From Escherichia coli (GTDB taxonomy: Bacteria; Pseudomonadota; Gammaproteobacteria; Enterobacterales; Enterobacteriaceae), in the NCBI RefSeq assembly GCF_024223415.1, contig NZ_CP100500.1: DNA of 64,000 nucleotides; one strand, 5' to 3'. Under the pieces are notes generated by a model. It saw nothing but the letters and a program-made list of their open reading frames with translations. It ran no database searches and was not told where the DNA came from. Both the position numbers and the translations under genes were made by a program. Positions 22,672-64,000 of this stretch are shown here, in pieces. The number at the start of each line of letters is the position of its first letter. The stretch's first letter is position 1.

Positions 22672-22704
22672 CTCCATAAACAACAAAGCCGCCCAAAAGG
22701 CGGC
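22672..22704 (-). terminator. Intrinsic terminator after the I-J intergenic lipoprotein gene, ending at the J ribosome-binding site
   Basis: GCCGCC-CAAAA-GGCGGC hairpin followed on minus strand by UUUGUUGUUUAU. Confidence 0.55.
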
Positions 22705-22729
22705 TCATGAGTTACGGCAGGATTAACTA

Positions 22730-23068: not shown

Positions 23069-23140
23069 ATAGCTAACCAACAGAATAATTATCAGTGTTC
23101 GATATAAATATTAAATCAGTTAGAACATGAGTAAATAATA

Positions 23141-23782: not shown

Positions 23783-24423
23783 TTGTCGGTGTACCTCTCT
23801 CGTTTGCTAAGTTGTTCAGGAATATGGTGCAGCAGCCCGCCGTCGCCGCAGTAAATGGCGGCATGATTCGGCACCGATGAACCAAAACAGCACAGCAGCA
23901 CGTCGCCGGGCTGCGCCTCTGTCAGTGCGACACGGTAAAAACCAGTCGCCTCCATATTGTCAAGATAGAGATTCTGACCGTTACGCCACCAGTCATCCCC
24001 GCGATGAAAATCCGGCATCTCAATTCCCGCCAGATGGTAAGCATCCCGGAACAGCGTGTAACAGTCCGTCACCCCGTGCTCAAAGCACCGCCCGGTGAGA
24101 TGCGGCACACAGCGGAACTTGTGAATCGCCCCCCGGCAGACCAGCCACCACGGCAAATCACTCTGCACCTGCAGCCGCCGGTCGGCCTCACTCAGCCAGG
24201 GCAGACCACCGGGGTGACTGTGGACCAGTGCCACAATCTCACCCTGCATTTCTGCCTGCAGCCAGTCCTCCGGCGACATCCGGAAATACGCCTCCGGCTC
24301 ACCGGAGATATTCACGCAGGGGAAATATCTTTCCCCCTCCGGCGCTCTCACCACGAAGCCGCACGACTCCGCTGGCGCACATCGCCGGGCGTGCGCCAGA
24401 ATCGCTGATTCTGTCTCTGTCAT
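23680..24423 (-). CDS. Tail assembly protein K (NlpC/P60 + JAB/MPN)
   Basis: ATG at 24423 gives MTETESAILAHARRC..; HSHP JAMM motif; C-terminal tail RRTHSLRRHRAW as in lambda K. Confidence 0.88.
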   Translation of the reverse strand: MTETESAILAHARRCAPAESCGFVVRAPEGERYFPCVNISGEPEAYFRMSPEDWLQAEMQGEIVALVHSHPGGLPWLSEADRRLQVQSDLPWWLVCRGAIHKFRCVPHLTGRCFEHGVTDCYTLFRDAYHLAGIEMPDFHRGDDWWRNGQNLYLDNMEATGFYRVALTEAQPGDVLLCCFGSSVPNHAAIYCGDGGLLHHIPEQLSKRERYTDKWQRRTHSLRRHRAWHASAFTGICNDLAAASTFV

Positions 24424-24427
24424 GGAA

Positions 24428-25126
24428 TTACTGCGAAAGTTTGTGAATGGAAAGAAAACCGCCAAAGTTGCCGACGTTATTGCGAAACTTACAGCCGCTC
24501 AGGCATTTGCTGCATTTATCCTTCGTGATATCGGACGTCGGCTGATCATATTCATCCGCGACCGCCGGACCGCTATAACCGCACTCATCGCCGCGATAGG
24601 TCCAGGTGCAGGTGTTGGCCAGCATGATACGTCCCGGAAAAACAGCGCCGTCCGTTTCCGTCGGCGTGGCCAGTACAAAGGTCGCGCTGACCGCTGTCAA
24701 ATCACTGCACTGCTCGATGCGCCAGCGGCTGATAACCTCCTGCTCCGGATCGGCGTCACTGTTTCCGTTGACGAAGTTCACCGCATCCAGAAAACGGGCA
24801 TAAACTTTACGCCGGACCACCGTTCCGCCGACCAGACTCTGCATATCTTCCACCATACCGGTGACCATACCGTACAGGTTAGAAACCGTCAGCGTGGGGC
24901 GCGTACTGGTGCCTTTGCCATTCAGTTCAAAACCACTCCCCTGAATGGGATACGGCTGATACTGTCGCCCCTGCCAGGTGACCGGCTCACCTTTTTCGTT
25001 CTGCTCATTACAGAAAAAATAACGTTCTCCACCGACCTCTGTCAGATCGATTTCCCAGAGCACCACGCTGGCCGACTGCTCCGCACGGGTGCATTCATTC
25101 AGTGTTTCCTGCCGGATATCCTGCAT
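24428..25126 (-). CDS. Minor tail protein L
   Basis: 232 aa, lambda gpL-like. Confidence 0.9.
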   Translation of the reverse strand: MQDIRQETLNECTRAEQSASVVLWEIDLTEVGGERYFFCNEQNEKGEPVTWQGRQYQPYPIQGSGFELNGKGTSTRPTLTVSNLYGMVTGMVEDMQSLVGGTVVRRKVYARFLDAVNFVNGNSDADPEQEVISRWRIEQCSDLTAVSATFVLATPTETDGAVFPGRIMLANTCTWTYRGDECGYSGPAVADEYDQPTSDITKDKCSKCLSGCKFRNNVGNFGGFLSIHKLSQ

Positions 25127-25455
25127 CAGTTCACCACCTGTTCAAACTCTGCGCTGAACTCAACACGCAGCATACTGACCCGCGACGACCATTTTGCGCA
25201 GGTCACCTTTATCTGCCGCCACTCATAAGGCGGCGTCCACAGAAAGGATTTCCAGCCCCCGTGCTCTTCCAGAAACGACTCCAGTACCGTGGCCTCCTCA
25301 CGGGGGACAGAAAGCGTCACGCTGTACGTTTTCAGGTTGGCATTCAGCCCGGCAGGCGCTCGCTGGGAATAGCCATCACCAAAGCGCACCTTTCTTACAG
25401 AAGGGACCGAAGCCACATCCATACCGGGTTTCACTTTCCAGCGGAAGGTTTTCAT
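25126..25455 (-). CDS. Minor tail protein M
   Basis: 109 aa, lambda gpM-like. Confidence 0.9.
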   Translation of the reverse strand: MKTFRWKVKPGMDVASVPSVRKVRFGDGYSQRAPAGLNANLKTYSVTLSVPREEATVLESFLEEHGGWKSFLWTPPYEWRQIKVTCAKWSSRVSMLRVEFSAEFEQVVN

Positions 25456-28013
25456 CGTCCACCTCCGGAGAACAGACCACCATCACGCATCTGTGTCTGA
25501 ATTTCATCACGGGCACCCTTGCGGGCCATGTCATACACCGCCTTCAGCATCTGTGGACCTGGCAGACCATTCGTACCGTCGTTCTGAATCACCACGTTGT
25601 TGTTCTGCTCAAACCTGATACCCTCTGAACGCCGCATTTGTGCCGGACTTCCGGTGCCACCGACATAACCACCAGTGGCATAGCCGCGCATCAGCCGGTA
25701 GAGATTTCCCACGCCAATCCGGCTGGTTGCCTCCTTCGTGAAGACAAACTCACCACGGTGAACAATCCCCGCTGGCTCATATTTGCCGCCGGTTCCCGTA
25801 AATCCCCCGGTCGCAAAATGGAATTTTGCCGCAGCAGCCTGAATGGCTGTACCGCCTGACACTGATGCGCCACCACCGGCAGCACCGCCAATGACGCTGC
25901 CGATACTCCCGACAATCCCCACCATTGCCTGCTTAAGCAGAATTTCTGTCATCATGGACAGCACGGAACGGGTGAAGCTGCGCCAGTTCTGCTCACTGCC
26001 GGTCAGCATCGCCGCCATATTCTGTGCAATTCCATCAAAGGTCTGCGTGGCTGCACTTTTTACCTGCGACATACTGTCCGTGGCGCTCTCTTCCCACTCA
26101 CTCCAGCCGGACTTCAGGCCTGCCATCCAGTTCCCGCGAAGCTGGTCTTCAGCCGCCCAGGTCTTTTTCTGCTCTGACATGACGTTATTCAGCGCCAGCG
26201 GATTATCGCCATACTGTTCCTTCAGGCGCTGTTCCGTGGCTTCCCGTTCTGTCTGCCGGTCAGTCAGCCCCCGGCTTTTCGCATCAATGGCGGCCCGTTT
26301 TGCCCGTTGCTGCTGTGCGAATTTATCCGCCTGCTGCGCCAGCGCGTTCAGGCGCTCCTGATACGTAACCTTGTCGCCAAGTGCAGCCAGCTGGCGTTTG
26401 TACTCCAGCGTCTCATCTTTATGCGCCAGCAGGGATTTCTCCTGTGCAGACAGCTGGCGACGTTGCGCCGCCTCCTCCAGTACCGCGAACTGACTCTCCG
26501 CCTTCCACAAATCCCGGCGCTGCTGGCTGATTTTCTCATTTGCTCCGGCATGCTTCTCCAGCGTCCGGAGTTCTGCCTGAAGCGTCAGCAGGGCGGCATG
26601 AGCACTGTCTTCCTGACGATCGCCCGCAGACACCTTCACGCCGGACTGTTTCGGCTTTTTCAGCGTCGCTTCATAATCCTTTTTCGCCGCCGCCATCAGC
26701 GTGTTGTAATCTGCCTGCAGGATTTTTCCGTCTTTCAGTGCCTTGTTCAGTTCTTCCTGACGGGCGGTATATTTCTCCAGCGGTGTCTGCAGGCGTTCGT
26801 AAGCCTTCTGCGCCTCTTCGGTATATTTCAGCCGTGACGCTTCGGTATCGCTCTGCTGCTGCGCATTTTTGTCCTGTTGACTCTGCTGCTCAGCCTTCTT
26901 TCGGGCGGCTTCAAGCGCAAGACGGGCCTTTTCACGATCATCCCAGTAACGCGCCCGCGCTTCATCGTTAACAAAATAATCATCCTTGCGCAGATTCCAG
27001 ATATCGTCCGCTTTCTTAAACGCGGCCTCTGCCTTAATCAGCATCTCCTGCGCGGTATCAGGACGACCAGTATCCAGCACCGCATCCCACATGGATTTGA
27101 ATGCCCGTGCTGTCCTGTCTGCCCAGGTTTCCAGCGTGCCCATGTTCTCTTTCAGGCGGCGGGTCTGGTCATCAAACCCTTTCGTTGCGGCCTCGTTCGC
27201 CGCCTGCAATGCCCCTGCCTCATCGCCGGAACGCTGCAACTGAGCAACATACGCAATCTGCTCCGCCGTCACGTTATGGAACTGGCGCGCCATCGCCGTC
27301 AGCCCCGACGTCGGGTCTGTGGTCAGCTTCCCGAAGGCTTCAGCGACCTTGTCCACCTCCACGCCGGATGCAGAGGAGAAACGCGCCACACTCTGGCTGA
27401 TGGACGCAATCTGAGCCTCACCGCTTACCCCCGCCTTAACCAGTGCGCTGAGTGACTCGCTGGTCTGGTTAAACGTCAGCCCTGCCGCCTGCCCGGCTCT
27501 GGACAGGACCAGCATACGATCTGCCGTCAGTCCCGCCTGATTGCCGGAAAGGACCAGCGTTTTGTTGAAATCGGACAGGGTTGAGTTGCCCTGATACCAG
27601 GCATACGCCAGCGCACCGGTCGCCACCGCCAGCGAGGTGGCCCCGACCATCGGCAGGGTGATCGCACCGGCAAGCCCCCTGAACATGGGGATCATCCCGC
27701 CGAAGGAGTCCTTCACCTGACCACCCTGTTGCAGCAGGATCAGCCACGGACTCTGCCCGCCTGCAAGCTGTGTGGCCACGTCGGTGAACTGTGCAGGCAG
27801 CATACGCATGGCGGCTTTATACTGTCCGACGGAAATCCCCGCTTTCTGTGCAGCCAGCGCCTGCCGGTTCATTGACTGTTCAACGACTGCCGCTGTTTTT
27901 TTCGCATCACTTTCCGTACCGGAAAAATGACGCCTGACTCTGGCCATCTGCTCGTCAAACCTGGCCGCATCCAGACTTAAATCAACGACCAGATCGCCTA
28001 CCGGTTCAGCCAT
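25452..28013 (-). CDS. Tail tape measure protein H
   Basis: 853 aa; coiled-coil rich; lambda gpH-like. Confidence 0.92.
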   Translation of the reverse strand: MAEPVGDLVVDLSLDAARFDEQMARVRRHFSGTESDAKKTAAVVEQSMNRQALAAQKAGISVGQYKAAMRMLPAQFTDVATQLAGGQSPWLILLQQGGQVKDSFGGMIPMFRGLAGAITLPMVGATSLAVATGALAYAWYQGNSTLSDFNKTLVLSGNQAGLTADRMLVLSRAGQAAGLTFNQTSESLSALVKAGVSGEAQIASISQSVARFSSASGVEVDKVAEAFGKLTTDPTSGLTAMARQFHNVTAEQIAYVAQLQRSGDEAGALQAANEAATKGFDDQTRRLKENMGTLETWADRTARAFKSMWDAVLDTGRPDTAQEMLIKAEAAFKKADDIWNLRKDDYFVNDEARARYWDDREKARLALEAARKKAEQQSQQDKNAQQQSDTEASRLKYTEEAQKAYERLQTPLEKYTARQEELNKALKDGKILQADYNTLMAAAKKDYEATLKKPKQSGVKVSAGDRQEDSAHAALLTLQAELRTLEKHAGANEKISQQRRDLWKAESQFAVLEEAAQRRQLSAQEKSLLAHKDETLEYKRQLAALGDKVTYQERLNALAQQADKFAQQQRAKRAAIDAKSRGLTDRQTEREATEQRLKEQYGDNPLALNNVMSEQKKTWAAEDQLRGNWMAGLKSGWSEWEESATDSMSQVKSAATQTFDGIAQNMAAMLTGSEQNWRSFTRSVLSMMTEILLKQAMVGIVGSIGSVIGGAAGGGASVSGGTAIQAAAAKFHFATGGFTGTGGKYEPAGIVHRGEFVFTKEATSRIGVGNLYRLMRGYATGGYVGGTGSPAQMRRSEGIRFEQNNNVVIQNDGTNGLPGPQMLKAVYDMARKGARDEIQTQMRDGGLFSGGGR

Positions 28014-30586: not shown

Positions 30587-30949
30587 TCAGCGGCGACGAT
30601 TAACGGCAGGCGGTACGCCCCGCCCAAGCCAGAGATGACAGCTTCCGCCATCATCCGGCGAAACCCGGTCTATCCAGAAGTTTTCCTCACCGATGGTCAG
30701 CGTGTCTCCACGCCGCAGTTGCCGCACATCATCAGTCCGGACAAACAGGGACGGGCTGGAGCCTTCAACGCGCACGCCCTGTCCGGCATAGCTGATATTT
30801 TCAGGGTCATCAAAAACACCACGTATTACTGCGCCGGGCTGCTCACCGGATGTAATGGTGGCTGACGTTCCCATATGCCCGCGTATCGTTTCATCAGCCC
30901 GGGCAATGGCTGTATCAAAACCGTTATCCCTGATATTAATAACTTTCAT
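30587..30949 (-). CDS. Head-tail connector protein FII
   Basis: ATG at 30949; ..FDTAIARADETIRGHMGTSATITSGEQ.. matches lambda FII. Confidence 0.88.
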   Translation of the reverse strand: MKVINIRDNGFDTAIARADETIRGHMGTSATITSGEQPGAVIRGVFDDPENISYAGQGVRVEGSSPSLFVRTDDVRQLRRGDTLTIGEENFWIDRVSPDDGGSCHLWLGRGVPPAVNRRR

Positions 30950-31298
30950 CTGTAACAAGCCCCTCCAGGACAAGTTCCGCAACATTCACTGGATCAACTC
31001 TGACAGTCATACCTGTAACAACAATCTCCATATCACTGTCATCATGCGGATGTTTTCCCGCCACATGCAGGGTTTTGAGTACACGAACAGTGCTCATTTC
31101 ATCCCCGCCAGTGGAGTGGCTATACGTCATCAAATGCCTTTCGTTCTCATCACTCTCCTGGTTTTTGTCCTCTGCTTCCTCTTCCCATTCCGCCACCCGC
31201 TGCGCTATCTCTGCGGCACTCCCGGATATATCCGGCTCACGCCCCAGAATCAGGGCCAGTTCATCAAGCCGTTTCAGATTTTGCTCTTTCGTTGCCAT
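30936..31298 (-). CDS. DNA packaging protein FI-like
   Basis: ATG at 31298 with AGGGGG RBS; position between E and FII; acidic. Confidence 0.6.
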   Translation of the reverse strand: MATKEQNLKRLDELALILGREPDISGSAAEIAQRVAEWEEEAEDKNQESDENERHLMTYSHSTGGDEMSTVRVLKTLHVAGKHPHDDSDMEIVVTGMTVRVDPVNVAELVLEGLVTDESY

Positions 31299-31349
31299 AT
31301 CAGCCCCCTGTGAAAAAAGACACGGGGGCATTTCGCCCCCGCTCACGGA

Positions 31350-32378
31350 TTATTTCACCTGTACCACCACAAACTCATCCGGGTCCGGCAACACCATCAG
31401 CGGCGCGGACTGCGTCATGGTAAATTCACGGGCGGGATCCCCCACCGTCAGCCAGTGTTTCGGATAACGGGAAGAGGCCACCACTCCTTCAGACAACGCC
31501 TGTGCATCCTGAATGGCACCGTAACAACGGATCCCATCTGCAGCAGTATTCCCCAGGACCAGCGTGCCGTCTGGCAGATAACGTTTTTCGGTACCGTCCT
31601 CTGCCACATAAGACGTTTTCGCCACCACAATGGCCAGATCACCGTAATACCCTTTGAAAGACACCACCGCCCCCAGGTCTTTCACTGCCGTTTCGAGTTG
31701 CGAATTTGAACCGCGACGGGTATCCAGTTTTTCGCGGAACAGCTTAAAACCATTCAGCAGACGCCAGACGGTACCGTCCATAATGGCAATATTCACAAGG
31801 CCGCTGGCCTGGTCGCAGTAGAGGTCAATATCATGCGCAGGATCGAACGTGTCACGATCGTGCTCAGACCATTTTTTACCACTGGCCTGCGTAATGTTAT
31901 TCTTCGTCGACCTGCCAAAATCGACCTCAATTTTCTCGAACTGGTCTCCTTCCATGGTGTATTTGCCATACAGCACGGCATTTACCGCCTGCATTTCTTC
32001 CACCTGGACAATCGCGTGCTCTTCCTGTTTGAGGTTATCGGTAATGATACGCAGACGGCGGTAAGCCGGATCGTTCAGTTGAGCCGGATCTTCACCAGGA
32101 AGGCGCTCAACCGCCTGCCGGGAATTAAATTCGTGTTTCGGCTTGACGTAGCCCGGACGCAACACGCGGGTTTCACCACCACGATGACGCAGCACTTTTC
32201 CTTCAACAACCGGGGAGACATAGGCCGCCACCGGCGTTTTTCCGGTAATTTTGTCCAGCATCACCTCTTCGGTATGGAAATTCACCGTACGACGGAAAAA
32301 CAGCTCCAGAAACAGCGCACGAAATTTCACTTTTTGTTCGGTATAACCGAGTAACTGGCGGGTCGTAAACAATCCCAT
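31350..32378 (-). CDS. Major capsid protein E
   Basis: 342 aa; lambda gpE-like throughout. Confidence 0.93.
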   Translation of the reverse strand: MGLFTTRQLLGYTEQKVKFRALFLELFFRRTVNFHTEEVMLDKITGKTPVAAYVSPVVEGKVLRHRGGETRVLRPGYVKPKHEFNSRQAVERLPGEDPAQLNDPAYRRLRIITDNLKQEEHAIVQVEEMQAVNAVLYGKYTMEGDQFEKIEVDFGRSTKNNITQASGKKWSEHDRDTFDPAHDIDLYCDQASGLVNIAIMDGTVWRLLNGFKLFREKLDTRRGSNSQLETAVKDLGAVVSFKGYYGDLAIVVAKTSYVAEDGTEKRYLPDGTLVLGNTAADGIRCYGAIQDAQALSEGVVASSRYPKHWLTVGDPAREFTMTQSAPLMVLPDPDEFVVVQVK

Positions 32379-32435
32379 AAATCAGTTCCTTTCATTCAGA
32401 AATCAGTCAGGCCACCGCGGTGGCCTGATAACGTG

Positions 32436-32783
32436 TTACGGCAGCGCCGCGTGACTCAGGGCACTACCGGCAAAGGCGTTGGCCTTTTTGTGTTCATCCA
32501 CACTGTCAGGCCAGCGGATTGCCTCCGTCGCAAAGGTTCCCGACTTGTAATACGTCAGCACCGTCTCTGTGCCTTCAAGCGGCAGTACCAGTATGCCAAC
32601 CGCACTACCGGCTTTCTGTCCGTCCCAGACCACCAGTTTCCCGGTGGCTTCATCCAGCATCAGGGGCGTCAGTGCCGGTGTTGGCGAGGAAATCCCGCTG
32701 CTGCCTGTGGCGGTATGAGCCGGATCATTACCGGCAAAAATACGTACTTCCGCACGCTGTTCAGTGATGGTTTTCGTTACCAT
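32436..32783 (-). CDS. Head decoration protein D
   Basis: 115 aa; lambda gpD-like (..DPAHTAT..TPLMLD..). Confidence 0.9.
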   Translation of the reverse strand: MVTKTITEQRAEVRIFAGNDPAHTATGSSGISSPTPALTPLMLDEATGKLVVWDGQKAGSAVGILVLPLEGTETVLTYYKSGTFATEAIRWPDSVDEHKKANAFAGSALSHAALP

Positions 32784-32819
32784 ATTGTAAAAACCTCCTA
32801 TTGATGGTCAGCACTGGCT

Positions 32820-34325
32820 TCATGGCATGGCCATGAGCATTTTCACGTCCGCATCACCGTCTGCTGACGTCTGTGGCACGCCACCCTGTACCGCTGCCGG
32901 TGAATGGTTCGCCATGAAATGTTCAAACATGGCGGTTGTGGATGCAGAGACCGGTTCTGCCTTACCTGATCCCGCAGCCAGCACAGCCCGGGCGTTCTCC
33001 ACGGTCATTCCCGGGCAGGCAGCCAGCTGTTCAGCCTGCGCCTCAGCCCCTTTTGCCTCATCCAGGGCCATGATCTGATCACGGAGTGATGGTCCGGCAT
33101 CCGCCTGCGGTGAAGCTGCCAGGATCGGGCGGGCTTTTTCCACCGTCATCTCCGGCATCGCCGCCAGCGTTGCCGCCAGTTGTTCACGACCTTTCGCCTC
33201 TTCACACGCCATAATGCGATCGGCTTCACTCTGCGCGGATGCCACCGGCTGCTGTGGTGCCGCCGCGGCCAGGATCTCCCGGGCCTGTTCAACGCTCATG
33301 CCCTGTTGTCCCGCCAGCATCGTGGCAAGCTGTTCACGTCCTTTCGCTTCCTTACTCGTCAGGATCCCCATCACTCGCTGGTTCTCCTGCGCGGCGGCTT
33401 CCGTTGCAGTTAATTGCGGCATAGTGCCTCCTGTATCATGTGTGTACAGCGCCGTGGTCATCACACTGATGGCATCCGACGCATTGACTAATTCATCCGC
33501 CAGCCCGGCCTCAATGCCGGACTGACCTTCAAAAACGGCGGCCTCTGTTCCCGTGACCACATCCACAGACAGCCCGGTATACATCGCCACTTTTTCGGCA
33601 AACATCCGGTGTGCCGCATCAATGCGCTGCTGCATGTCCTGACGCACCTCTTCCGGTAAGGCTTCAAACTGATTGCCATCCACCTTGTGCGCCCCGGCAT
33701 AAATCAGCGTGATATCCACACCGGCCTGCGCCAGATGACCGGCATAGCTGAGATGGCTCATCATCACGCCAATGGAGCCGATACGGGATGTCTGGGTAAC
33801 CAGCCGTCGGGAGCAGGCCGACGCCAGCAGCATGGCTGCAGAACAGGCCGTGTCATTGCACAGTGCCCAGACCGGCTTCTGCTGACGGAGGCGGTAAATC
33901 ATGTCAGCGCAGTCAAACGCGCCTGCGACCTGCCCGCCCGGACTGTCAATGTCCAGCAGTACGCCCCGGACAGCGGTGTCCGCCATTGCCTGCTGAAGAC
34001 AGGCGACAATGCCGTCATAGCCTGTCATTCCGGAAAATGGCCGCATACCACCCAGCCGGTGCACCAGCATGCCGGTCACCGGCAGTACAGCAATACCGTT
34101 CACCACCCGGTAAACACGGGCCGGTCGTTTACCTCCGGCCATGTACTCGTCCGTTTCAGCCAGCATTCCGGGAGCATCAAGCTGTACCTGCTGTTGTGGT
34201 ACCGAAAGACTTGCTGCCCCCATCTCGCGCCCGAGCGCGCAAAAGAAAACCCGCGCATAGGCGGGCTCCAGAAGCAGCGGTTCATTGAATGCTGCGGCAA
34301 TAATGTGTGAAAGATTACGTCTCAC
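32820..34325 (-). CDS. Head maturation protease / scaffold C (S49 ClpP-like) with internal EAKGxEQL repeats
   Basis: 501 aa; lambda gpC-like; three repeats of an approx 35-aa segment. Confidence 0.88.
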   Translation of the reverse strand: MRRNLSHIIAAAFNEPLLLEPAYARVFFCALGREMGAASLSVPQQQVQLDAPGMLAETDEYMAGGKRPARVYRVVNGIAVLPVTGMLVHRLGGMRPFSGMTGYDGIVACLQQAMADTAVRGVLLDIDSPGGQVAGAFDCADMIYRLRQQKPVWALCNDTACSAAMLLASACSRRLVTQTSRIGSIGVMMSHLSYAGHLAQAGVDITLIYAGAHKVDGNQFEALPEEVRQDMQQRIDAAHRMFAEKVAMYTGLSVDVVTGTEAAVFEGQSGIEAGLADELVNASDAISVMTTALYTHDTGGTMPQLTATEAAAQENQRVMGILTSKEAKGREQLATMLAGQQGMSVEQAREILAAAAPQQPVASAQSEADRIMACEEAKGREQLAATLAAMPEMTVEKARPILAASPQADAGPSLRDQIMALDEAKGAEAQAEQLAACPGMTVENARAVLAAGSGKAEPVSASTTAMFEHFMANHSPAAVQGGVPQTSADGDADVKMLMAMP

Positions 34326-35907
34326 GTGGTGTTGTCTCCTCTTCCGGCCTGCGACTCGCCGCTATCTGCTGCTGATACGCCTGCGCTATCCACACCGGAC
34401 GTGAGAGTCCGGCTTTTTCCCGCTCTGCAGATTCCCTGACCTGCTGGCGGAAAATGTCCTGATAATCCTCACCCATCAGCGCCAGCTCTTTCTCATACGT
34501 GCTCAGTCCGGCCTCAATGCGCATCACCGATTCCTGGACCTCCTTGAGCCCGTCAATGGCCATTCTTCCGGCTCCAATCCACTCTGCCCGTGACCAGGAT
34601 GAACGCGCCTGATAAAAATCAAAACGCGCCCGTGGCGGACGAATAATCCCCCGCAGAAGAGCCTCTTCCAGCCAGCAGGAAAACATCTGCGTGGCCAGCC
34701 GGGCCGCAATAAATTTTCGCCGCCCCATAAAATAGCGCCACGACTCATTGGCGGAGGCGCGGGCACTTGAATAACTGACCTTCGAGTAATCACGGGACAA
34801 CTGTTCGTAGGAAACGCCAAGACCGGCGGCGATATACCGCAGCAGCGCCTGTTCAAGCGCAGAAAATCCATTGTCTGAATCCTGCGCAGTCTGTAGTTTC
34901 AGATCATCACCGGGGAAAAGGTGCGGAATTTTGACACCGCCCAGTGTCACGTTATTCGTGTCATACCAGCTGGAGAACTTCTCCAGAATATTAATAAGCG
35001 GATTATCCTTCTGCCCCTCCGGCGCACCGGCGATATATTCAAAGGCCTTTTCGGTATCAAGTTCACTTTCAATCGTCGCTGCATACATCGCCTTCACTAT
35101 GGCTGACTGAAGCTGTGTTGCCTGCAGGGAATCGAGCATTTTCAGCCGTTCCATGACGCTGTAAAACTGATTAGCCCCACGGGTCTGCCCGTCCTCAACC
35201 GGCTCGAAAATATGCAGCATGGCCGGACGCCCGGTGGGAAGTTCACGCGGGATCCGTTCCCATCGTCCACTACCAGAGAGCGGAAAATCATCCTCACAGA
35301 TATGGTACGCAACGGCCCGTCCATGCCGATCGACCTCCACCCCGGCCCGCAGAAAGCGGTTCCCCATACCGTGTCCAGGCGTGTCCACCCGTTTCGGACT
35401 CACGGCTTTAAAACGCGTACGAAACAGCTGCGTAGTCTCCGCATCCCAGACCGGCTGCACAAAGATTTCGCCGTTAAACGCATGAACGCCCACGCCTTCC
35501 CGGATAAATTCCGTGAACGTGCGTTTTCCTTCCACGTCGATCTCGCCAGACATCCCTTCGGCGTATTCCGACCAGGCCGCCTCCACCTCATCGACAAAGC
35601 TTTTTGCTGCGGTCTCCCGCATCCCCAGCCAGCGCCAGTTCGGACGGTAGCTGATCAGAAACATATGCCCGACTATGTGATCCTTATGCAGGGCCACCGC
35701 ATTAGCCGCTATTCCGTTATTGCGCACCAGATCATCTGCCCGGGCATTCCCCAGACGCAACGCGGGCAGCAGGGCCGCATCGACACTCTGCGCCGGTGGC
35801 AACCACTCCGCCATTTGCCCGCCAAATCCTGCGCCGCCCCCGTTGTAGCTGAGACTCTCACGAAGCGGAACGCCGTTCACATCAATCAGGACAGGCGTTC
35901 TTTTCAT
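34315..35907 (-). CDS. Portal protein B
   Basis: 530 aa; lambda gpB-like. Confidence 0.92.
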   Translation of the reverse strand: MKRTPVLIDVNGVPLRESLSYNGGGAGFGGQMAEWLPPAQSVDAALLPALRLGNARADDLVRNNGIAANAVALHKDHIVGHMFLISYRPNWRWLGMRETAAKSFVDEVEAAWSEYAEGMSGEIDVEGKRTFTEFIREGVGVHAFNGEIFVQPVWDAETTQLFRTRFKAVSPKRVDTPGHGMGNRFLRAGVEVDRHGRAVAYHICEDDFPLSGSGRWERIPRELPTGRPAMLHIFEPVEDGQTRGANQFYSVMERLKMLDSLQATQLQSAIVKAMYAATIESELDTEKAFEYIAGAPEGQKDNPLINILEKFSSWYDTNNVTLGGVKIPHLFPGDDLKLQTAQDSDNGFSALEQALLRYIAAGLGVSYEQLSRDYSKVSYSSARASANESWRYFMGRRKFIAARLATQMFSCWLEEALLRGIIRPPRARFDFYQARSSWSRAEWIGAGRMAIDGLKEVQESVMRIEAGLSTYEKELALMGEDYQDIFRQQVRESAEREKAGLSRPVWIAQAYQQQIAASRRPEEETTPRET

Positions 35908-36110
35908 AACCTCACTCCCAGCGGACGACGGCGACGTCGGGTTGTCCCCAGTACCGACTCCGCATCATTGATCGCCCGGTTAAGCTCATCCAGAGAAGCC
36001 GCCGTATATTCAATTCTGCGACCATCTTTCTGGACAGACACCACCCGTTTACCGGTTAATAAATCAAGGCGCGCCTGACGCAGCGCCTGCAGTTCAGCGA
36101 CTGTAACCAT
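35904..36110 (-). CDS. Head-tail joining protein W
   Basis: 68 aa; lambda gpW-like (..LTGKRVVSVQKDGRRIEYTAAS..). Confidence 0.88.
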   Translation of the reverse strand: MVTVAELQALRQARLDLLTGKRVVSVQKDGRRIEYTAASLDELNRAINDAESVLGTTRRRRRPLGVRL

Positions 36111-38022
36111 TCACTCCTCCGGACAGCTTCGCTGCCAGTTCTTTAAGGGTTGGCCGGGTCGTCTCTTCTTCCCGGGATTTTGCCAGTACAGCCAGATCAA
36201 GCTGCCAGCGTTGCACGGACACACGTAATGCCGCGTAGGCATACACCAGGCAGTCCAGCGCTTCGTTACGCCGCTTTTTGTTATCCCACAGCAGACGCAT
36301 CTTTCCTTTTTCCCACTTCTCCACAAGCTCTTCCGCGACCAGTTGCTGCGCCTCTGTCTGCGAAAAAATCTCCGGATCATCAGGAAAACGGATGGCATAC
36401 GACGTGGATTCATCCGCAGGCGTGGGAGCGGCTTTCATACGGGCATAGAGAATTTCTTTTGCGGTGTCCGTCCCCACTTCACACAGATACACGCCCCGCT
36501 GATTGCGGGTTTTTGGCATGGTGATCACCGGCTTGCCATAGACAGATGCGCCTTTTACCGGCAGCACCCGGAAAACACCGTGTTTTTTTGACCTCTGATA
36601 AACGATTTCGCCATCGATCCCCCCGATGTCCCAGCAGACACGGGAAATGGTCATTTCGGTTCCGTCTGCATGGCAGTATTTTTTGTTGATCGCCGCATCC
36701 ACACGTAACAGCGTCTCTTCCTCATCGGGACGTCCCATAATGATGATTTTATCCACCAGAAAGGCTTCCTCTCCCGGAGCCCATCCCCAGACATACATCT
36801 CAAAACGGTTTCGCTGCGAGTCAATGCCCGCCGTCAGATAAACCACCCGGGCAGGCACCGCCGCCGTGTAACGCACAACCTTATCCATCAGTACCTGGTG
36901 ATCGAGTTTTTCGCCCACGGCCTCTTCCCAGGTCTCGCCCAGCGTGGTGTTCACAAAGGTTTTCAGGCCGTTGGGATCTTTCAGTGCATCCAGCCAGTCA
37001 TAGACTATCTGTACCCAGGTGGTGAACGGACTGTACGCCGTCCAGATATGGAAAGTGATGGAGCGCGGCGGCGGAATTTCATCACCCCGGGCGCTGAAAA
37101 ACGTCAGACCGTCACGGGTCCACATCCCCGTGTTTTCACAGATCCACCGCCCGTTACTCTGGTCAAGCTCAGACTGATGGATCACACAGCCATGATGCTC
37201 ACAAAGGTAGAAAACACTTTCTGGCTTATTCTTCTCCCACTTAAGACCGAAAGCCGAGGCATCATCACCAAATTTCAGATACTGCTCCTCCCCACAGTGC
37301 GGACAGGGCACATAAAAACGCATGAAATGTGCCGACTCGTTAGCGGCTTTTTCGATCTGGCAGGAGCCTTTGATTTTAGGCGTCGAGCCGCGAATGGATT
37401 TTGGCCATACAGAGCCCTCAATACGCTTATCCCCCAGCAGGGTTGGCGAGCCCTCTTTTTCAACATCAGGTTCAAACGATGAGAGTTCGTCATAGCAGAC
37501 CACGTCCACGGATTTTTCACGGTAGTTTTTGGCGGCAGCGCCGCCCAGGCACCAGAAACCGACGCCCGATGAAAAGCGTTTCAGCGTGAGGGTATTATCA
37601 CGATGTTTACGACCCAGCCATGGGGAAAGGTCTTTCAGGCATGGCACGTCCCTAATCGTCGTCTCCACGTGAGACTTCATAAAATCTTCAGCGGCAGAAT
37701 CCGTGGGCTGAAAAAGCAGACTGTTTCGGGATTTATGCTCAATAAAATACCCGACCACCCCCAGCAACATCTTTGTATAACCAATACGGGCAGATTTAAT
37801 CAGATTAACAGTGCGGATCAGGTCATTACCCATACTGTTCATGATGGCGATCTGGAACGGCAGCGTTTTCCATTCGCCGTCACCGTATGAGGATTCTTTA
37901 GGCAGATAATAATACTGGTCAGCCCATTCAACTGCCGTCATCGGTACAACCCTGACCAGAGGCTGCAGCGCAACCGAAACGGCAGCCATCAGATTATTCA
38001 GTTGTTGCTCTGATATATTCAT
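36094..38022 (-). CDS. Terminase large subunit A
   Basis: ATG at 38022 gives MNISEQQLNNL..; lambda gpA-like over full length. Confidence 0.93.
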   Translation of the reverse strand: MNISEQQLNNLMAAVSVALQPLVRVVPMTAVEWADQYYYLPKESSYGDGEWKTLPFQIAIMNSMGNDLIRTVNLIKSARIGYTKMLLGVVGYFIEHKSRNSLLFQPTDSAAEDFMKSHVETTIRDVPCLKDLSPWLGRKHRDNTLTLKRFSSGVGFWCLGGAAAKNYREKSVDVVCYDELSSFEPDVEKEGSPTLLGDKRIEGSVWPKSIRGSTPKIKGSCQIEKAANESAHFMRFYVPCPHCGEEQYLKFGDDASAFGLKWEKNKPESVFYLCEHHGCVIHQSELDQSNGRWICENTGMWTRDGLTFFSARGDEIPPPRSITFHIWTAYSPFTTWVQIVYDWLDALKDPNGLKTFVNTTLGETWEEAVGEKLDHQVLMDKVVRYTAAVPARVVYLTAGIDSQRNRFEMYVWGWAPGEEAFLVDKIIIMGRPDEEETLLRVDAAINKKYCHADGTEMTISRVCWDIGGIDGEIVYQRSKKHGVFRVLPVKGASVYGKPVITMPKTRNQRGVYLCEVGTDTAKEILYARMKAAPTPADESTSYAIRFPDDPEIFSQTEAQQLVAEELVEKWEKGKMRLLWDNKKRRNEALDCLVYAYAALRVSVQRWQLDLAVLAKSREEETTRPTLKELAAKLSGGVNGYSR

Positions 38023-38503
38023 CCAGCAAATCCGGTAATTTATCCCCTGCCCGCGCACACTGATTTGCCCCCTTCGCAATAAGGGTTTTCAGATGGTCAA
38101 GATGGCGCGGTGTTAAATCAGGAAACTGTCGTTGCATGGATAAAGGGATGGAATCAAGCGTACTGGATAACGCCATTGCCAGCTTGCTGAGGGCAAAAAT
38201 ACAGAATCCGGTGTCAATAAGTTTTCCTTTTGACACCTCATTTTTTAACTGCTGTGTAACAGCCTGTTCTGCTGTCAGTTCCCATCTGGCAATAAGCAAT
38301 TTCTCCTCATAGTCGTCTTCGCTATCGCCATCAGGCACATCGTTTTTACTTCTTCTCAGATACGATATGTAAAAATCACGCCAGGCATCCAGATCCAGTT
38401 GCCCTCGCTTATTCGATATCGGGGCACCCGGCAATTTCTGCAGTCTGCGAAGCTGGCGATCGGTCAGACTCAAATGCCTGGCAACTTCAGTCTGCGTAGC
38501 CAC
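37994..38503 (-). CDS. Terminase small subunit Nu1
   Basis: 169 aa; N-terminal HTH, C-terminal ..CIFALSKLAMALSSTLDSIPLSMQRQFPDL.. like lambda Nu1. Confidence 0.88.
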   Translation of the reverse strand: MATQTEVARHLSLTDRQLRRLQKLPGAPISNKRGQLDLDAWRDFYISYLRRSKNDVPDGDSEDDYEEKLLIARWELTAEQAVTQQLKNEVSKGKLIDTGFCIFALSKLAMALSSTLDSIPLSMQRQFPDLTPRHLDHLKTLIAKGANQCARAGDKLPDLLDEYIRATTE

Positions 38504-38570
38504 TGTTCACCTCGCAAAAAATCTCCCCTCATGCGTTTTAAACATGCATCTTGCGAGCAACTTTATGCAA

Positions 38571-38667
38571 ACGCACGCATATGTCCGGTTTGTTTGTACA
38601 TTTTTTGCACATGTCCGGTTCGCAGAAAGCATGTTTTTATATTTTTCATATAGTTAACTTGCAGAGA
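38571..38667. promoter_or_regulatory. cosB: three terminase R-element repeats (ATGTCCGGTT x2 direct, x1 inverted)
   Basis: Repeats at 38571-38580, 38601-38610 and inverted at 38658-38667 between cosN and Nu1. Confidence 0.6.
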
Positions 38668-38715
38668 AACCGGACATGGATCCCGGAAAATTTTCATAAA
38701 TAGCGAAAACGCGCG

Positions 38716-38727
38716 AGGTCGACGCCC
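38716..38727 (-). other. cosN cohesive-end site (GGGCGTCGACCT, one mismatch to lambda GGGCGGCGACCT)
   Basis: Minus-strand ACGGGGCGTCGACCTCGCGCGTTTTCGCTATTTATGAAAATTTTCCGG closely matches remembered lambda cos. Confidence 0.8.
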
Positions 38728-38878
38728 CGTAACCTGTTGGATCGCCGGAAAGGACCCGAAAAAAACGAGAATAATTATCACTTACAGCAAGAATCGAATC
38801 TGATCTATTCTGATGCTTGCTATTATGTGCCGGCACAAGTGCGTCGTTTACCGTCATTTCACACAGAGGCATCATCAA

Positions 38879-39130
38879 ATGAAAATCAGAAATATTCTCG
38901 CTATCTCCCTTGCAACATCATCCTTCAGTTGCCTGGCATTTAAACCCTCGCCCAATGTGCTACCAGGACCAACGAATCAACTAACTGCGGTAGAAAGTAA
39001 AATTATCGGACATTTTTATGCCCCACACAGTGCATTACCCGGAACAACCATCACAGGGACATGTGACGCCTCCCCCATTCCGGGATGCACCTGTCCGTTT
39101 TGTACTATGCTGCGTAGCCAAAACCGATAA
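38879..39130 (+). CDS. Small secreted cysteine-rich protein at the bor position (opposite strand to late operon)
   Basis: ATG at 38879 gives 83 aa with signal peptide MKIRNILAISLATSSFSCLA and C-terminal CxxxxxxxCxCxxC cluster. Confidence 0.5.
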   Translation: MKIRNILAISLATSSFSCLAFKPSPNVLPGPTNQLTAVESKIIGHFYAPHSALPGTTITGTCDASPIPGCTCPFCTMLRSQNR

Positions 39131-39494: not shown

Positions 39495-39821
39495 TCAGGG
39501 ACGTGATGGCGTAAAGATAAATTGTCTCTTCACTCCCTGACGGGGACTATTCTTTTCAAATCTCCATTTCGCCATGGCCTTCACCACTTCATCACGAAAC
39601 AAATTATGAGGCTCTGAGCGGAGAAAAACGATCCGTGTCACAGTCCCGTCAGCACCAATATCGAACTTAACCTCAACCAGCCCCTTGATATAATTTGCTG
39701 CAGCATATTCCGGATATCGTGGATACACCGTCACTAATTGCCGGGGCTCATCAGCTTTTTGCTGCGAGCATCCCACTGCCAGGGCAGATAACAGAAAAAG
39801 TAGTGAAAGGCGTCTTTTCAT
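39495..39821 (-). CDS. Lipoprotein consisting of a TonB C-terminal-like domain
   Basis: ATG at 39821 (AGGA RBS) gives 108 aa: lipobox LAVGC then ..YPRYPEYAAANYIKGLVEVKFDIGADGTVTRIVFLRS.. resembling TonB_C. Confidence 0.6.
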   Translation of the reverse strand: MKRRLSLLFLLSALAVGCSQQKADEPRQLVTVYPRYPEYAAANYIKGLVEVKFDIGADGTVTRIVFLRSEPHNLFRDEVVKAMAKWRFEKNSPRQGVKRQFIFTPSRP

Positions 39822-40453
39822 TTTTATTCCTACGGGTCTTATTCTGACAATATATCCTGTGTTCCAGACTGCCACATCACCACATCCTGTGCCATTATCT
39901 GACTCACATTACATACATCGCATCAGGATACAGTAGTAGCACTTTCTGTAATACAGCTTCCGGTTTCTTCCACCATCGCACCGGACTGGCGAGCATGAGG
40001 GACAAACCCGCGAACCATAAACGCGGTAAAAACCCGGTGTGCATCGTTTTTGATTATTCCCGCACACTCGCGCAGAAGGAGTTCCCCGTCGGGCTACGGT
40101 CATGGTTAATGCGGGAATACAGCGACGATACAGCGCATGATGTGTCAGGCTTGAATACCTTTATCCGTTAAAAGGGATATCAGTTAAGTTATCCCGTGTA
40201 GGGTATAAGCCATTATCAAAGCCACTCTGTAGGGAGTGGCTTTTGTAATGGCAATAAAAAAGCCCCGCGAATGCGAGGCTAAATCCAGGTATTTTTAATG
40301 ACTGGCTCTTATCTCAACGCAGCCCCTTACCGCGCGCCAGATGCTCAATATCAAGCATCAGCAATGAGATGTTTAATCTGGATTCACTCCAGAAGTGATC
40401 ACCACCCTGTCTACAGAGCCAGATGTGAAGGATGATGAGTAAAATTATCGCTA

Positions 40454-42796: not shown

Positions 42797-42873
42797 TGGA
42801 CCGCCACCGGGGACTCGAACCTCGCACACTCAACTTAAAGGGTTGACGCTCTTTCCTGATGAGCTAGTGGCGG
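42797..42873 (-). tRNA. tRNA-like gene with non-canonical anticodon loop CCUUUAA (by analogy to Stx-phage argN/argO position)
   Basis: Cloverleaf with 7-bp acceptor, GCTC/GAGC D-stem, TTCGAGT T-loop, CCA encoded; C33 and one T-stem mismatch. Confidence 0.55.
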
Positions 42874-42874
42874 T

Positions 42875-42950
42875 TGGTGGCCCTTGCTGGATTTGAACCA
42901 GCGACCTGGCGATTATGAGTCGCTCGCTCTCACCACTGAGCTAAAGGGCC
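42875..42950 (-). tRNA. tRNA with CAU anticodon (ileX/ileZ-like tRNA-Ile2 or Met)
   Basis: GGCCCTTTAGCTCAGTGGTGAGAGCGAGCGACTCATAATCGCCAGGTCGCTGGTTCAAATCCAGCAAGGGCCACCA folds as canonical cloverleaf. Confidence 0.8.
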
Positions 42951-63985: not shown

Positions 63986-64000
63986 AGTTTAAAGACGGAA

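What the first reader, a model, noticed from the sequence alone, without database searches (positions are those of the whole stretch)
38504..38727. Lambda-type cos with a variant cohesive end and R-element repeats
cosN reads GGGCGTCGACCT (one change from lambda) and three ATGTCCGGTT R-elements lie between cosN and Nu1. Together with the intact terminase and head genes this indicates the packaging apparatus is likely functional.
Basis: partly seen in the sequence, partly recalled or inferred. Interest (0 to 1): 0.3.

Follow-up and report, generated by a model that had tools for sequence, protein, structure and literature searches.

The report
Lambda-type phage packaging site, rare end variant
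This is a genuine lambda-style DNA-packaging (cos) site of an E. coli prophage, of a common but unstudied recognition class and with a rare one-base change in the sticky end; it is ordinary in kind, and the prophage looks trapped by a chromosome inversion.

Summary
On the minus strand lie cosQ (GGGTCCT, 38757-38751), cosN (GGGCGTCGACCT, 38727-38716; G6T versus lambda) and three exact ATGTCCGGTT copies. These sit at bp 51-60 (forward), 108-117 and 138-147 (both inverted). An IHF-like site lies between the first two, and terS starts at bp 225.

The layout is lambda's R3-I1-R2-R1, except that R1 is inverted. The repeat sequence and the TerS N-terminal domain match none of the lambda, 21 or N15/Monarch classes. 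The same class occurs in about 20% of complete E. coli genomes and in the plaque-forming PhiR12 phages, whose TerS is 100% identical to the window's but whose cosN is canonical. Repeat class tracks TerS N-terminus across seven classes.

TerL is 95% identical to phage 21's except for its first ~60 residues. The head genes are full length.

T6 is rare: 4 exact matches among 9,863 E. coli cos places, and 7 versus more than 120 loci in IMG/VR. It still occurs with four cosB classes.

Caveat: the prophage is flanked by ompW on one side and yecE'/yecD on the other. This implies an inter-prophage inversion with mismatched att sites, so induction may yield no virions even if cos works.

Verdict: a new member of a known kind, of low interest.

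The parts
38751..38757 (-). cosQ heptamer GGGTCCT, at bp -30 to -24 from the first cohesive-end base (the packaging-termination signal in lambda)
   Evidence: Same sequence and same distance from cosN as in lambda J02459 and phage 21. The composite pattern is unique in the window.
38716..38727 (-). cosN: the 12-nt cohesive-end sequence GGGCGTCGACCT (T at position 6 = window 38722). Inferred nicks lie between 38728/38727 on the minus strand and between 38716/38715 on the plus strand.
   Evidence: The flanking CG on each side and the first four bases GGGC are as in lambda. The nick positions are inferred by homology and have not been measured.
38686..38698 (-). I2-like site TATGAAAATTTTC (bp 30-42)
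   Evidence: Identical in lambda and PhiR12_1, and differs from phage 21 at one base. It lies within the span annotated I2 (bp 30-44) in the phage 21 record M81255.
38668..38677 (-). R3 repeat ATGTCCGGTT (bp 51-60; extended form CCATGTCCGGTTTCTCTG)
   Evidence: It occupies the place of R3 in lambda (bp 50-65) and in phage 21 (bp 50-65).
38644..38656 (-). I1-like IHF site TAACTATATGAAA (bp 72-84), with 2 mismatches to the reverse-complement IHF consensus YAANNNNTTGATW
   Evidence: It has the same orientation and position as lambda TAACTTAATGTTT (bp 74-86) and as the annotated I1 of phage 21 (bp 74-86).
38611..38620 (+). R2 repeat ATGTCCGGTT, inverted relative to R3 (bp 108-117)
   Evidence: With R3 it forms a perfect 11-bp inverted repeat, 47 bp between the arms. 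The position is invariant in 19 distinct sequences of this class.
38581..38590 (+). R1 repeat ATGTCCGGTT (bp 138-147), in the same orientation as R2, unlike R1 of lambda and 21
   Evidence: The PhiR12 subtype has an additional overlapping forward copy, ATGACCGGTT, at bp 146-155. The window lacks that copy.
38504..38580 (-). 77-bp spacer between R1 and terS. It contains the ribosome-binding site GAGG (38513-38510), 6 nt before the GTG start.
   Evidence: The spacer is 29 bp longer than in the PhiR12 subtype (terS start at bp 225 versus 196).
37994..38503 (-). terS (Nu1 family, 169 aa, GTG start). It has a divergent N-terminal winged-HTH domain and a Nu1-like C-terminal part.
36094..38022 (-). 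terL (gpA family, 642 aa from the ATG at 38022)
   Evidence: Pfam GpA_ATPase and GpA_nuclease both match. Identity is 66% to lambda gpA. It is 95% to phage 21 gp2 over residues 18-642, with most differences in the first ~60 residues. It is 95% to PhiR12_1 including the N-terminus.
30587..36110 (-). Head genes W, B (portal), C (protease/scaffold), D, E, FI and FII, all full length
   Evidence: Full-length Pfam matches. The region is 94.4% nucleotide-identical to phage 21 OL657228.

Best explanation
The region is the cos site of a lambdoid E. coli prophage that reads on the minus strand. Its subsites run cosQ - cosN - I2 - cosB(R3-I1-R2-R1) - terS - terL.

Proposed mechanism, inferred by homology with lambda and phage 21:
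1. IHF bends the DNA at the I1-like site (bp 72-84).
2. The bend juxtaposes the inverted CATGTCCGGTT copies R3 (bp 50-60) and R2 (bp 108-118). The dimeric N-terminal winged-HTH domain of the 169-aa TerS binds them.
3. The Nu1-like C-terminal part of TerS holds TerL through TerL's co-inherited N-terminal ~60 residues.
4. The TerL nuclease makes nicks staggered by 12 nt at cosN. This leaves 5'-GGGCGTCGACCT as the left cohesive end.
5. Packaging then runs terS -> terL -> head -> tail, toward lower window coordinates, and ends at the next cosQ/cosN.

The ATGTCCGGTT repeats and this TerS domain define a packaging-recognition class separate from lambda, 21 and N15/Monarch. The class is common in E. 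coli prophages and is carried by the PhiR12 phages.

The G6T cohesive-end change is a rare natural allele. It leaves the known critical positions untouched (the flanking CG pairs and bases 1-4) and is probably tolerated.

What is shown: the sequence anatomy, the positional conservation, the tracking of repeat class with TerS class, the gene integrity and the predicted fold. What is inferred: TerS and IHF binding, the nick positions, and cleavage of the T6 site.
For: Anatomy and uniqueness:
-.
- The cosQ-cosN-I2 core aligns with phage 21 and PhiR12_1 and matches lambda base for base apart from a few substitutions. Similarity to phage 21 stops at cosB.

R sites and IHF site:
- R3, R2 and R1 sit at bp 51, 108 and 138 in all 19 distinct sequences of this class.
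- The I1-like IHF site has the lambda/21 position and orientation.

Repeat class and TerS:
- Seven R3 classes were seen, each with its own TerS or Rpp N-terminus. Of the 21 loci of this repeat class with enough downstream sequence, 16 carry a terS and all 16 begin MATQTEVARHLS; the other five have no terS.
- The TerS model has the order strand, helix 4-10, helix 15-22, wing, helix 38-54.
- Foldseek returns MerR-type winged-HTH proteins and 6hn7_B.

Trans factors:
- TerS is 100% identical to that of plaque-forming PhiR12_1, which has the same R sites with canonical cosN.
- TerL is 95% identical to the TerL of PhiR12_1 and of phage 21.
- The head genes are full length.

Frequency of the class: 1,115 of 5,426 complete E. 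coli genomes match at least 80% of the 361-bp cos/terS query.

T6 allele:
- It is found with four cosB classes and several left flanks in IMG/VR.
- It is found in strain B771 on a different prophage backbone with all late genes annotated as intact.

Literature:
- Lambda cos mechanism and the critical cosN-to-R3 spacing: PMC4669245 and PMC9026076.
- Conserved cosN positions are the first 4 bp plus 2 flanking bp on each side, as paraphrased in PMC9303873 from Vahanian 2017.
Against: - There are no virion-end data for any T6 cos.
- T6 is rare. The exact 30-mer occurs in 4 records among 9,863 cos places in 4,582 genomes. In IMG/VR the counts are 7 loci versus more than 120.
[quoted passage not shown] It also breaks the central symmetric G6:C7 pair.
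- Two of the closest T6 copies sit in visibly decayed prophages. GF4 has a portal-to-tail-fibre deletion. 24A16CRGN010 has an IS66-family element in terL.
- R1 has the opposite orientation to R1 of lambda and 21.
- The fold-search scores for the small domain are weak by Foldseek (all E > 0.1).
- The prophage flanks imply mismatched att sites, so this copy may never be packaged.
Confidence: 0.78

Rival explanations
1. The site was a working cos, but the G6T change is a disabling or strongly weakening mutation fixed in a resident, decaying prophage. The cos in the window is then effectively dead.
For: - T6 is very rare.
- The same ompW-lineage prophage carries a large deletion in GF4 and an IS element in terL in 24A16CRGN010.
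- The window copy is trapped between mismatched flanks.
Against: - T6 occurs with four different cosB classes and at least four different left flanks.
- It occurs on a second prophage backbone with intact late genes, in B771. That spread is hard to reconcile with a dead site.
- Position 6 lies outside the positions reported as conserved (the flanking CG pairs and bp 1-4; PMC9303873 citing Vahanian 2017).
- Any base-pair change inside the overhang still yields complementary ends.
Confidence: 0.17
2. The ATGTCCGGTT copies are not terminase sites. They are operators for some other DNA-binding protein, or leftovers of an unrelated repeat, and TerS recognises something else.
For: No binding data exist. 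The R1 orientation differs from lambda and 21. The copies contain small palindromes (CCGG, ACATGT) that could suit other dimeric regulators.
Against: - The positions are fixed relative to cosN in 19 distinct sequences.
- R3 falls exactly where R3 of lambda, 21 and N15 lies, and an IHF-like site separates R3 from R2.
- The repeat class tracks the TerS N-terminus across seven classes.
- The same repeats sit next to a cosN, without any terS, in satellite-like elements.
Confidence: 0.03
3. In this chromosome the site no longer serves the prophage itself. Its terminase packages other DNA that carries the same cosB class, such as PICI-like satellites with a terS-less cos2 of this class, or adjacent host DNA from the unexcised prophage.
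For: - Mismatched flanks argue against excision.
- IMG/VR satellite-like contigs carry a complete R3-I1-R2-R1 of this class without a terS.
- There is only one cos in the 64 kb.
Against: - No satellite is present in the window.
- Lambda-type packaging needs a second cos for termination.
- This explanation adds to the main one rather than replacing it.
Confidence: 0.15

Closest known systems
Bacteriophage lambda cos (cosQ-cosN-cosB with R3-I1-R2-R1; Nu1/A terminase)
   Same: - The cosQ heptamer sits at the same distance from cosN.
- cosN is 12 nt with the same flanking CG pairs, and 11 of 12 bases are identical.
- I2-like and I1-like sites sit at the same positions.
- R3 lies at about bp 50-60 and an inverted R2 at about bp 108-118.
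- terS follows directly, with a Nu1-like C-terminal part (46% identity).
- terL is 66% identical to gpA over its full length.
   Different: - The repeat is ATGTCCGGTT, not CGTTTCC(G/T)TTCT.
- The first ~70 residues of TerS do not align by BLAST.
- R1 is inverted.
- terS starts at bp 225 rather than 191.
- Cohesive-end position 6 is T.
Bacteriophage 21 cos and head operon (M81255, OL657228)
   Same: - TerL residues ~65-642 and the head and tail genes are about 94-95% identical.
- The cosQ-to-I2 core is 93% identical.
- The subsite layout is the same.
- The phage 21 repeat core (C/T)(G/A)TGTCGG resembles ATGTCCGG apart from one extra C.
   Different: cosB, the TerS N-terminal domain and the first ~60 residues of TerL are replaced, so the recognition cassette is a different one. 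R1 orientation differs. Phage 21 has canonical G6.
Escherichia phages PhiR12_1, _2, _2_star, _4 and _5 (PV340549-PV340554; hosts listed as K-12 MG1655 or E. coli C)
   Same: - TerS is 100% identical to that of PhiR12_1.
- ATGTCCGGTT copies sit at bp 51, 108 and 138.
- The IHF-like site is nearly identical (one base differs).
- The TerL N-terminus is of the same type.
   Different: - These phages have canonical cosN GGGCGGCGACCT.
- They carry a fourth overlapping forward copy, ATGACCGGTT, at bp 146-155.
- terS starts at bp 196.
- The structural genes are only 85% identical.
- cos is not annotated in those records.
N15 / Monarch class of lambda-like cos sites (Feiss et al. 2015, PMC4669245)
   Same: It is another recognised case of a lambda-type cosN joined to a different R sequence and a different TerS recognition helix. 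The Monarch type also has three R sites plus an IHF site.
   Different: The R sequence is GGTTGTTGTT and the TerS N-terminus is different. N15 differs from lambda at cohesive-end positions 9 and 12, not at position 6.
cos1/cos2 of E. coli phage-inducible chromosomal islands (EcCICFT073; Fillol-Salom 2019, PMC6739421)
   Same: They share the cosQ/cosN core. The T6 allele is mostly linked to the island-type left flank GGCATGTGGACCC. Some island-like contigs carry a second cos whose cosB is of the window's class.
   Different: The islands have no terS next to that cos and rely on Rpp for cos1. The window holds a complete phage module.

Membership tests
Lambda-type cos site (lambda-like phages as defined by Feiss: 12-nt 5' cohesive ends related to lambda's) | A 12-bp cosN closely related to GGGCGGCGACCT, with a conserved CG flanking each nick and conserved first four bases | tested here: met
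   The sequence is CG|GGGCGTCGACCT|CG, 11 of 12 identical, with GGGC and both CG pairs intact.
Lambda-type cos site (lambda-like phages as defined by Feiss: 12-nt 5' cohesive ends related to lambda's) | cosQ heptamer about 30 bp upstream of cosN | tested here: met
   GGGTCCT lies at bp -30 to -24, identical to lambda and phage 21.
Lambda-type cos site (lambda-like phages as defined by Feiss: 12-nt 5' cohesive ends related to lambda's) | Complex cosB: R3 at about bp 50-65, an IHF site I1, then an inverted R2 | tested here: met
   R3 is at bp 51-60, an IHF-like site at 72-84 and an inverted R2 at 108-117. R3 and R2 form a perfect 11-bp inverted repeat.
Lambda-type cos site (lambda-like phages as defined by Feiss: 12-nt 5' cohesive ends related to lambda's) | R1 in the same orientation as R3 (R2 opposite to both) | tested here: not met
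   R1 (bp 138-147) has the orientation of R2. The forward copy at bp 146-155 seen in the PhiR12 subtype is absent here. In lambda R1 is an accessory site (PMC4669245).
Lambda-type cos site (lambda-like phages as defined by Feiss: 12-nt 5' cohesive ends related to lambda's) | terS directly downstream, with an N-terminal winged-HTH DNA-binding domain and a Nu1-type C-terminal part | tested here: met
   Pfam Phage_Nu1 matches residues 49-150. The predicted N-terminal fold matches RppC/TerS-type and MerR-type winged HTH. The fold is predicted, not solved.
Lambda-type cos site (lambda-like phages as defined by Feiss: 12-nt 5' cohesive ends related to lambda's) | gpA-family large terminase with ATPase and nuclease domains | tested here: met
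   Pfam GpA_ATPase (7e-54) and GpA_nuclease (3e-70) match. Identity to lambda gpA is 66% over the full length.
Lambda-type cos site (lambda-like phages as defined by Feiss: 12-nt 5' cohesive ends related to lambda's) | Virion DNA ends are 12-nt 5' overhangs at this site | not testable with these tools
   This needs virion DNA end sequencing.
Lambda packaging-specificity group (lambda, phi80) | R sequence CGTTTCC(G/T)TTCT and TerS recognition helix IRTIQNWQE | tested here: not met
   The repeat is ATGTCCGGTT. The TerS N-terminus is MATQTEVARHLSLTDRQLRRLQK, and the first 72 residues do not align.
Phage 21 packaging-specificity group | R sequence containing TGTCGG and a TerS N-terminus [23 protein letters not shown] | tested here: not met
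   Alignment with phage 21 breaks down after bp ~45. TerS aligns only from residue 64. The body of TerL is 21-like.
N15/Monarch packaging-specificity group | R sequence GGTTGTTGTT and an N15-type TerS recognition helix | tested here: not met
   The R3 sequence and the TerS N-terminus are both different.

The most novel reading that the evidence does not exclude
The ATGTCCGGTT/MATQTEVA... module is an uncharacterised, self-contained packaging specificity present in about one fifth of E. coli genomes. PICI-like satellites exploit it directly through a terS-less 'cos2' that copies its whole R3-I1-R2-R1 array. That would explain the so far unassigned second cos of such islands. The rare T6 cohesive end would be an island-lineage allele that entered phages by joining or recombination at the shared cos core.
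Probability: 0.3. Interest if true: 0.5.

Novelty: new member of a known kind. Interest (0 to 1): 0.2.

Why it matters
- **For annotation.** It gives exact coordinates and a recognisable signature for a cos class that is abundant in E. coli prophages. The signature is CATGTCCGGTT at bp 50-60, with inverted copies at 108-118 and 138-147. This cos is not annotated in the PhiR12 records, and no description of it turned up in the searches made here.
- **For packaging biology.** It adds a natural cohesive-end variant at position 6. This is in the half of cosN said to be conserved, and the variant occurs with several cosB classes. Testing whether TerL tolerates this position is therefore straightforward.
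- **For experiments on this strain.** The att mismatch means that failure to recover virions would not say anything about cos.
- **Overall.** None of this changes the known mechanism. It is an ordinary lambda-type cos of another specificity class.

Tried and rejected
- **Species-representative genomes.** A scan of 100,044 species-representative genomes for the T6 21-mer found nothing. This is uninformative for E. coli, which has only one representative there.
- **Sequence search of PDB.** A sequence search with TerS gave only chance hits, so a fold prediction was needed.
- **Literature searches for the sequences.** Full-text searches for GGGCGTCGACCT and for ATGTCCGGTT or CATGTCCGG found no phage paper.
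- **Source paper for PhiR12.** A search for the paper describing the PhiR12 phages found nothing.
- **Vahanian 2017.** The survey of natural cosN variation (Vahanian et al. 2017, Virology 509:140) is not held. Only paraphrases in other papers could be used.
- **att core.** A search for a direct repeat of at least 11 bp between the two prophage ends found none. This fits the mismatched flanks found later.
- **Megablast with a 65-mer.** This was a poor way to count alleles, because the word size excludes most G6 sites. It was replaced by a 30-mer blastn search.
- **Promoter and terminator scan.** The scan of the cos region gave no more sites than shuffles.
- **Sequencing error as the source of T6.** Rejected. 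The same base is present in four complete genomes and in seven IMG/VR loci.

Full report
**What is in the sequence**

The phage reads on the minus strand. From window 38800 downward the sequence is ...CGGGTCCTTTCCGGCGATCCAACAGGTTACG GGGCGTCGACCT CGCGCGTTTTCGCTATTTATGAAAATTTTCCGGGATCC ATGTCCGGTT TCTCTGCAAGTTAACTATATGAAAAATATAAAAACATGCTTTCTGCG AACCGGACAT GTGCAAAAAATGTACAAACA AACCGGACAT ATGCG... GAGGTGAACA GTG.

- GGGCGTCGACCT occupies 38727->38716. It is the only site in the 64 kb within one mismatch of lambda's GGGCGGCGACCT.
- The composite cosQ-N23-cosN-CG pattern occurs once, with none in shuffles.
- ATGTCCGGTT occurs exactly three times, all within 97 bp. Shuffles expect 0.10 copies, and 0 of 100 shuffles reach three.
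- Counting the first cohesive-end base as bp 1, the copies lie at bp 51-60 (forward), 108-117 and 138-147 (both inverted).
- R3 and R2 form a perfect 11-bp inverted repeat, CATGTCCGGTT, with 47 bp between the arms. R2 and R1 are direct repeats 30 bp apart.

The one refinement is that the three copies are not all in one orientation.

**Comparison with lambda and phage 21**

The window is almost identical to phage 21 and PhiR12_1 from cosQ (GGGTCCT, bp -30 to -24) through cosN to the I2-like TATGAAAATTTTC at bp 30-42. It matches lambda over the same stretch apart from a few substitutions. After about bp 45 it diverges completely from phage 21.

An IHF-consensus-like site, TAACTATATGAAA, lies at bp 72-84. 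Its orientation and position match lambda's TAACTTAATGTTT (bp 74-86) and the annotated I1 of phage 21.

The annotated phage 21 sites are R3 at 50-65, I1 at 74-86, R2 at 107-122 (inverted) and R1 at 150-166. The window's R3, I1 and R2 superimpose on these.

R1 does not. In the window it has the orientation of R2. In lambda and 21 it has the orientation of R3 (PMC4669245, PMC9026076).

**The proteins**

- *Small terminase.* The ORF at 37994-38503 (GTG start, 169 aa) matches Pfam Phage_Nu1 only over residues 49-150. BLAST aligns only residues 73-164 to lambda Nu1 (46%) and 64-166 to phage 21 gp1 (40%). The N-terminal DNA-binding part is a different sequence.
- *Large terminase.* TerL (642 aa from the ATG at 38022) has both gpA domains. 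It is 66% identical to lambda gpA. It is 95% identical to phage 21 gp2 over residues 18-642, with most differences in the first ~60 residues. It is 95% identical to PhiR12_1 TerL including the N-terminus.
- *Head and tail genes.* The whole region from terL to J is 94.4% nucleotide-identical to phage 21. W, B, C, D, E, FI, FII and Z give full-length Pfam matches.

The exchanged unit is therefore cosB, plus terS, plus the TerS-binding N-terminus of TerL. This cassette sits on a 21-like morphogenetic module.

**Is this recognition class real and used?**

- TerS is 100% identical to Nu1 of Escherichia phage PhiR12_1. That record is a complete phage genome whose host is listed as K-12 MG1655. PhiR12_1 has the same repeats at the same positions but canonical GGGCGGCGACCT.
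- No other phage record has this TerS above 60% identity. Only the five PhiR12 records do.
- In complete E. coli genomes, 1,115 of 5,426 match at least 80% of the 361-bp cos/terS query. Homologues occur in Klebsiella, Salmonella, Citrobacter and Enterobacter.
- In 145 lambda-type cos sites collected from IMG/VR, R3 falls into seven classes: lambda 51, this class 22, N15/Monarch 19, phage 21 18, GGTGGTGGT 13, AGATCC 12 and island-type CACCACCACC 8.
- Each class goes with its own TerS or Rpp N-terminus. Of the 21 loci of this class with enough downstream sequence, 16 have a terS and all 16 begin MATQTEVARHLS; the other five have no terS.
- In all 19 distinct sequences of this class the copies sit at bp 51, 108 and 138.

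Fixed spacing from cosN and this class-level tracking are the best available evidence that the repeats are TerS recognition sites. Binding itself is inferred.

**The T6 cohesive end**

T6 is rare.
- In IMG/VR the 21-mer with T occurs in 7 loci.
- In complete E. coli genomes a lambda-type cosN core is present at 9,863 places in 4,582 genomes. The exact T6 30-mer is in 4 records: B771, GF4, Ch1 and 24A16CRGN010.
- No species-representative genome has it.

Published work bears on this position.
- Feiss et al. [quoted passage not shown] G2C costs about 10-fold in yield (PMC4669245).
- A paraphrase of Vahanian et al. 2017 limits the strongly conserved positions to the first 4 bp and the 2 flanking bp on each side (PMC9303873). 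All of those are intact here.

T6 breaks the central symmetric G6:C7 pair.

Several observations argue against a dead site.
- T6 occurs with four cosB classes: this class 2/22, N15/Monarch 3/19, island-type 2/8 and AGATCC 1/12.
- It occurs with at least four left flanks, although it is concentrated on the flank GGCATGTGGACCC.
- In B771 it sits on a prophage with a different early region and with all late genes annotated as intact.
- The same cosB subtype as the window's exists with G6 (L110).

Other observations point the other way. The closest T6 copies belong to one ompW-integrated prophage lineage that is decaying. GF4 has lost everything from the portal gene to the tail fibre. 24A16CRGN010 has an IS66-family element in terL.

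I judge T6 most likely tolerated, perhaps with some cost. This is untested.

- *Right flank.* It runs int (57167-58294), ompW (58346-58981), then ORFs whose sizes and order match yciC, yciB, yciA, tonB and kch. This is as in GF4 and 24A16CRGN010, where the same prophage is integrated at ompW.
- *Left flank.* It does not contain the displaced ompW fragment and yciE seen in GF4. It contains the first 32 codons of yecE (read directly from the sequence), then yecD, aspS, ruvB, znuA, mepM and lpxM.
- *A matching junction elsewhere.* Strain TUM1886 has exactly this left junction at the end of a bona fide yecE-integrated prophage. That prophage's structural genes are 97-99% identical to the window's.
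- *Geometry.* ompW and yecE lie on opposite sides of the replication terminus in K-12. This statement rests on my own knowledge of the map. The two prophages are inverted relative to each other.

The window therefore shows one product of an inversion by recombination between two similar prophages. Its attL is of the ompW type and its attR of the yecE type. No shared core repeat of at least 11 bp was found between the ends.

Int-mediated excision is thus unlikely. Lambda-type packaging needs a second cos, and the window has only one. The packaging genes may be fine while the prophage yields no virions.

**Side observation on satellites**

Many IMG/VR loci carry two convergent cos sites 535-879 bp apart. 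In L069 the first cos is followed by an rpp-like gene (144 aa). The contig also encodes DUF927, SSB, gpE-like and gpD-like proteins. The second cos reads toward rpp. It has a full R3-I1-R2-R1 array of the window's class and no terS. Other contigs pair the island-type cos with Monarch-, 21- or AGATCC-type arrays.

EcCICFT073 is known to have cos1 and cos2. Only cos1 was needed for transfer by lambda and phage 80, and no phage cosB was recognised in either site (PMC6739421). A cos2 that mimics another helper class would explain this. I did not test EcCICFT073 itself.

**Verdict**

This is a real lambda-type cos. It belongs to a common but apparently uncharacterised recognition class and carries a rare position-6 cohesive-end allele. 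Its kind and mechanism are known, and the instance is a new member of that kind. Interest is low.

Noticed in passing
window 1-12290 and 58346-64000: The two host flanks come from different chromosomal loci. The left flank runs lpxM, mepM, znuA, ruvB, aspS, yecD and the first 32 codons of yecE. The right flank runs ompW, then ORFs matching yciC, yciB, yciA, tonB and kch. Strains GF4 and 24A16CRGN010 have the same int/early/cos prophage next to ompW, and in GF4 it is bounded by ompW and ompW'. TUM1886 has a yecE-integrated prophage with near-identical late genes. The window prophage therefore looks like one product of an inversion between two prophages across the terminus, with mismatched att sites.
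   Followed up: partly
L069 6876-7640 (also L008, L011, L030, L058, L129 and other two-cos loci): PICI-like satellite contigs carry two convergent cos sites flanking an rpp-like gene. The second cos has a complete phage-type R3-I1-R2-R1 array and no terS. The array is of the window's ATGTCCGG class in some contigs, and of the Monarch, 21 or AGATCC class in others. This may be the role of the unexplained cos2 of EcCICFT073-type islands.
   Followed up: partly
IMG/VR loci L006-L132 (bp -19 to +24 around cosN): Left-flank type, cosN allele and cosB class reassort freely. Each left flank is found with several cosB classes. T6 is concentrated on the island-type flank GGCATGTGGACCC. The conserved cos core therefore behaves as a recombination or joining junction between phages and satellites.
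   Followed up: partly
window 37940-38022 (terL codons 1-~60): The similarity of terL to phage 21 starts only after the first ~60 codons. The N-terminus matches PhiR12_1 instead. cosB, terS and the TerS-binding end of TerL therefore travel together as one cassette.
   Followed up: yes
window 22694-23145: A 450-bp insertion lies between tail genes I and J, relative to B771 and TUM1886. It holds an ORF (22733-23080, 116 aa) that matches only phrog_914, of unknown function.
   Followed up: partly
window 38879-39130 (+) and 39498-39875 (-): Two small genes lie between the lysis cassette and cos. One is an 83-aa ORF on the opposite strand whose N-terminus looks like a signal peptide (by eye). It has no Pfam or PHROG hit and is not annotated in B771. 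The other is a 126-aa protein with a TonB C-terminal domain. The position recalls lambda's bor moron.
   Followed up: partly
window 42797-42950 (-): tRNA-Lys(UUU) and a CAU-anticodon tRNA lie downstream of the Q antiterminator gene. ARAGORN calls the second one Met. RefSeq annotates it as Ile in GF4.
   Followed up: no
window 13193-14887 (-): A YadA-like trimeric autotransporter adhesin gene and a sigma-70 region-4 HTH gene sit at the tail-fibre end of the prophage. They are shared by the ompW- and yecE-type prophages.
   Followed up: no
L133 (GF4) 24027-24063; L136 (24A16CRGN010) 23547-26246: Sister copies of the same T6-cos prophage are visibly defective. GF4 has a deletion joining the portal gene to a tail-fibre gene. 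24A16CRGN010 has an IS66-family element (ISCro1) inserted in terL.
   Followed up: yes
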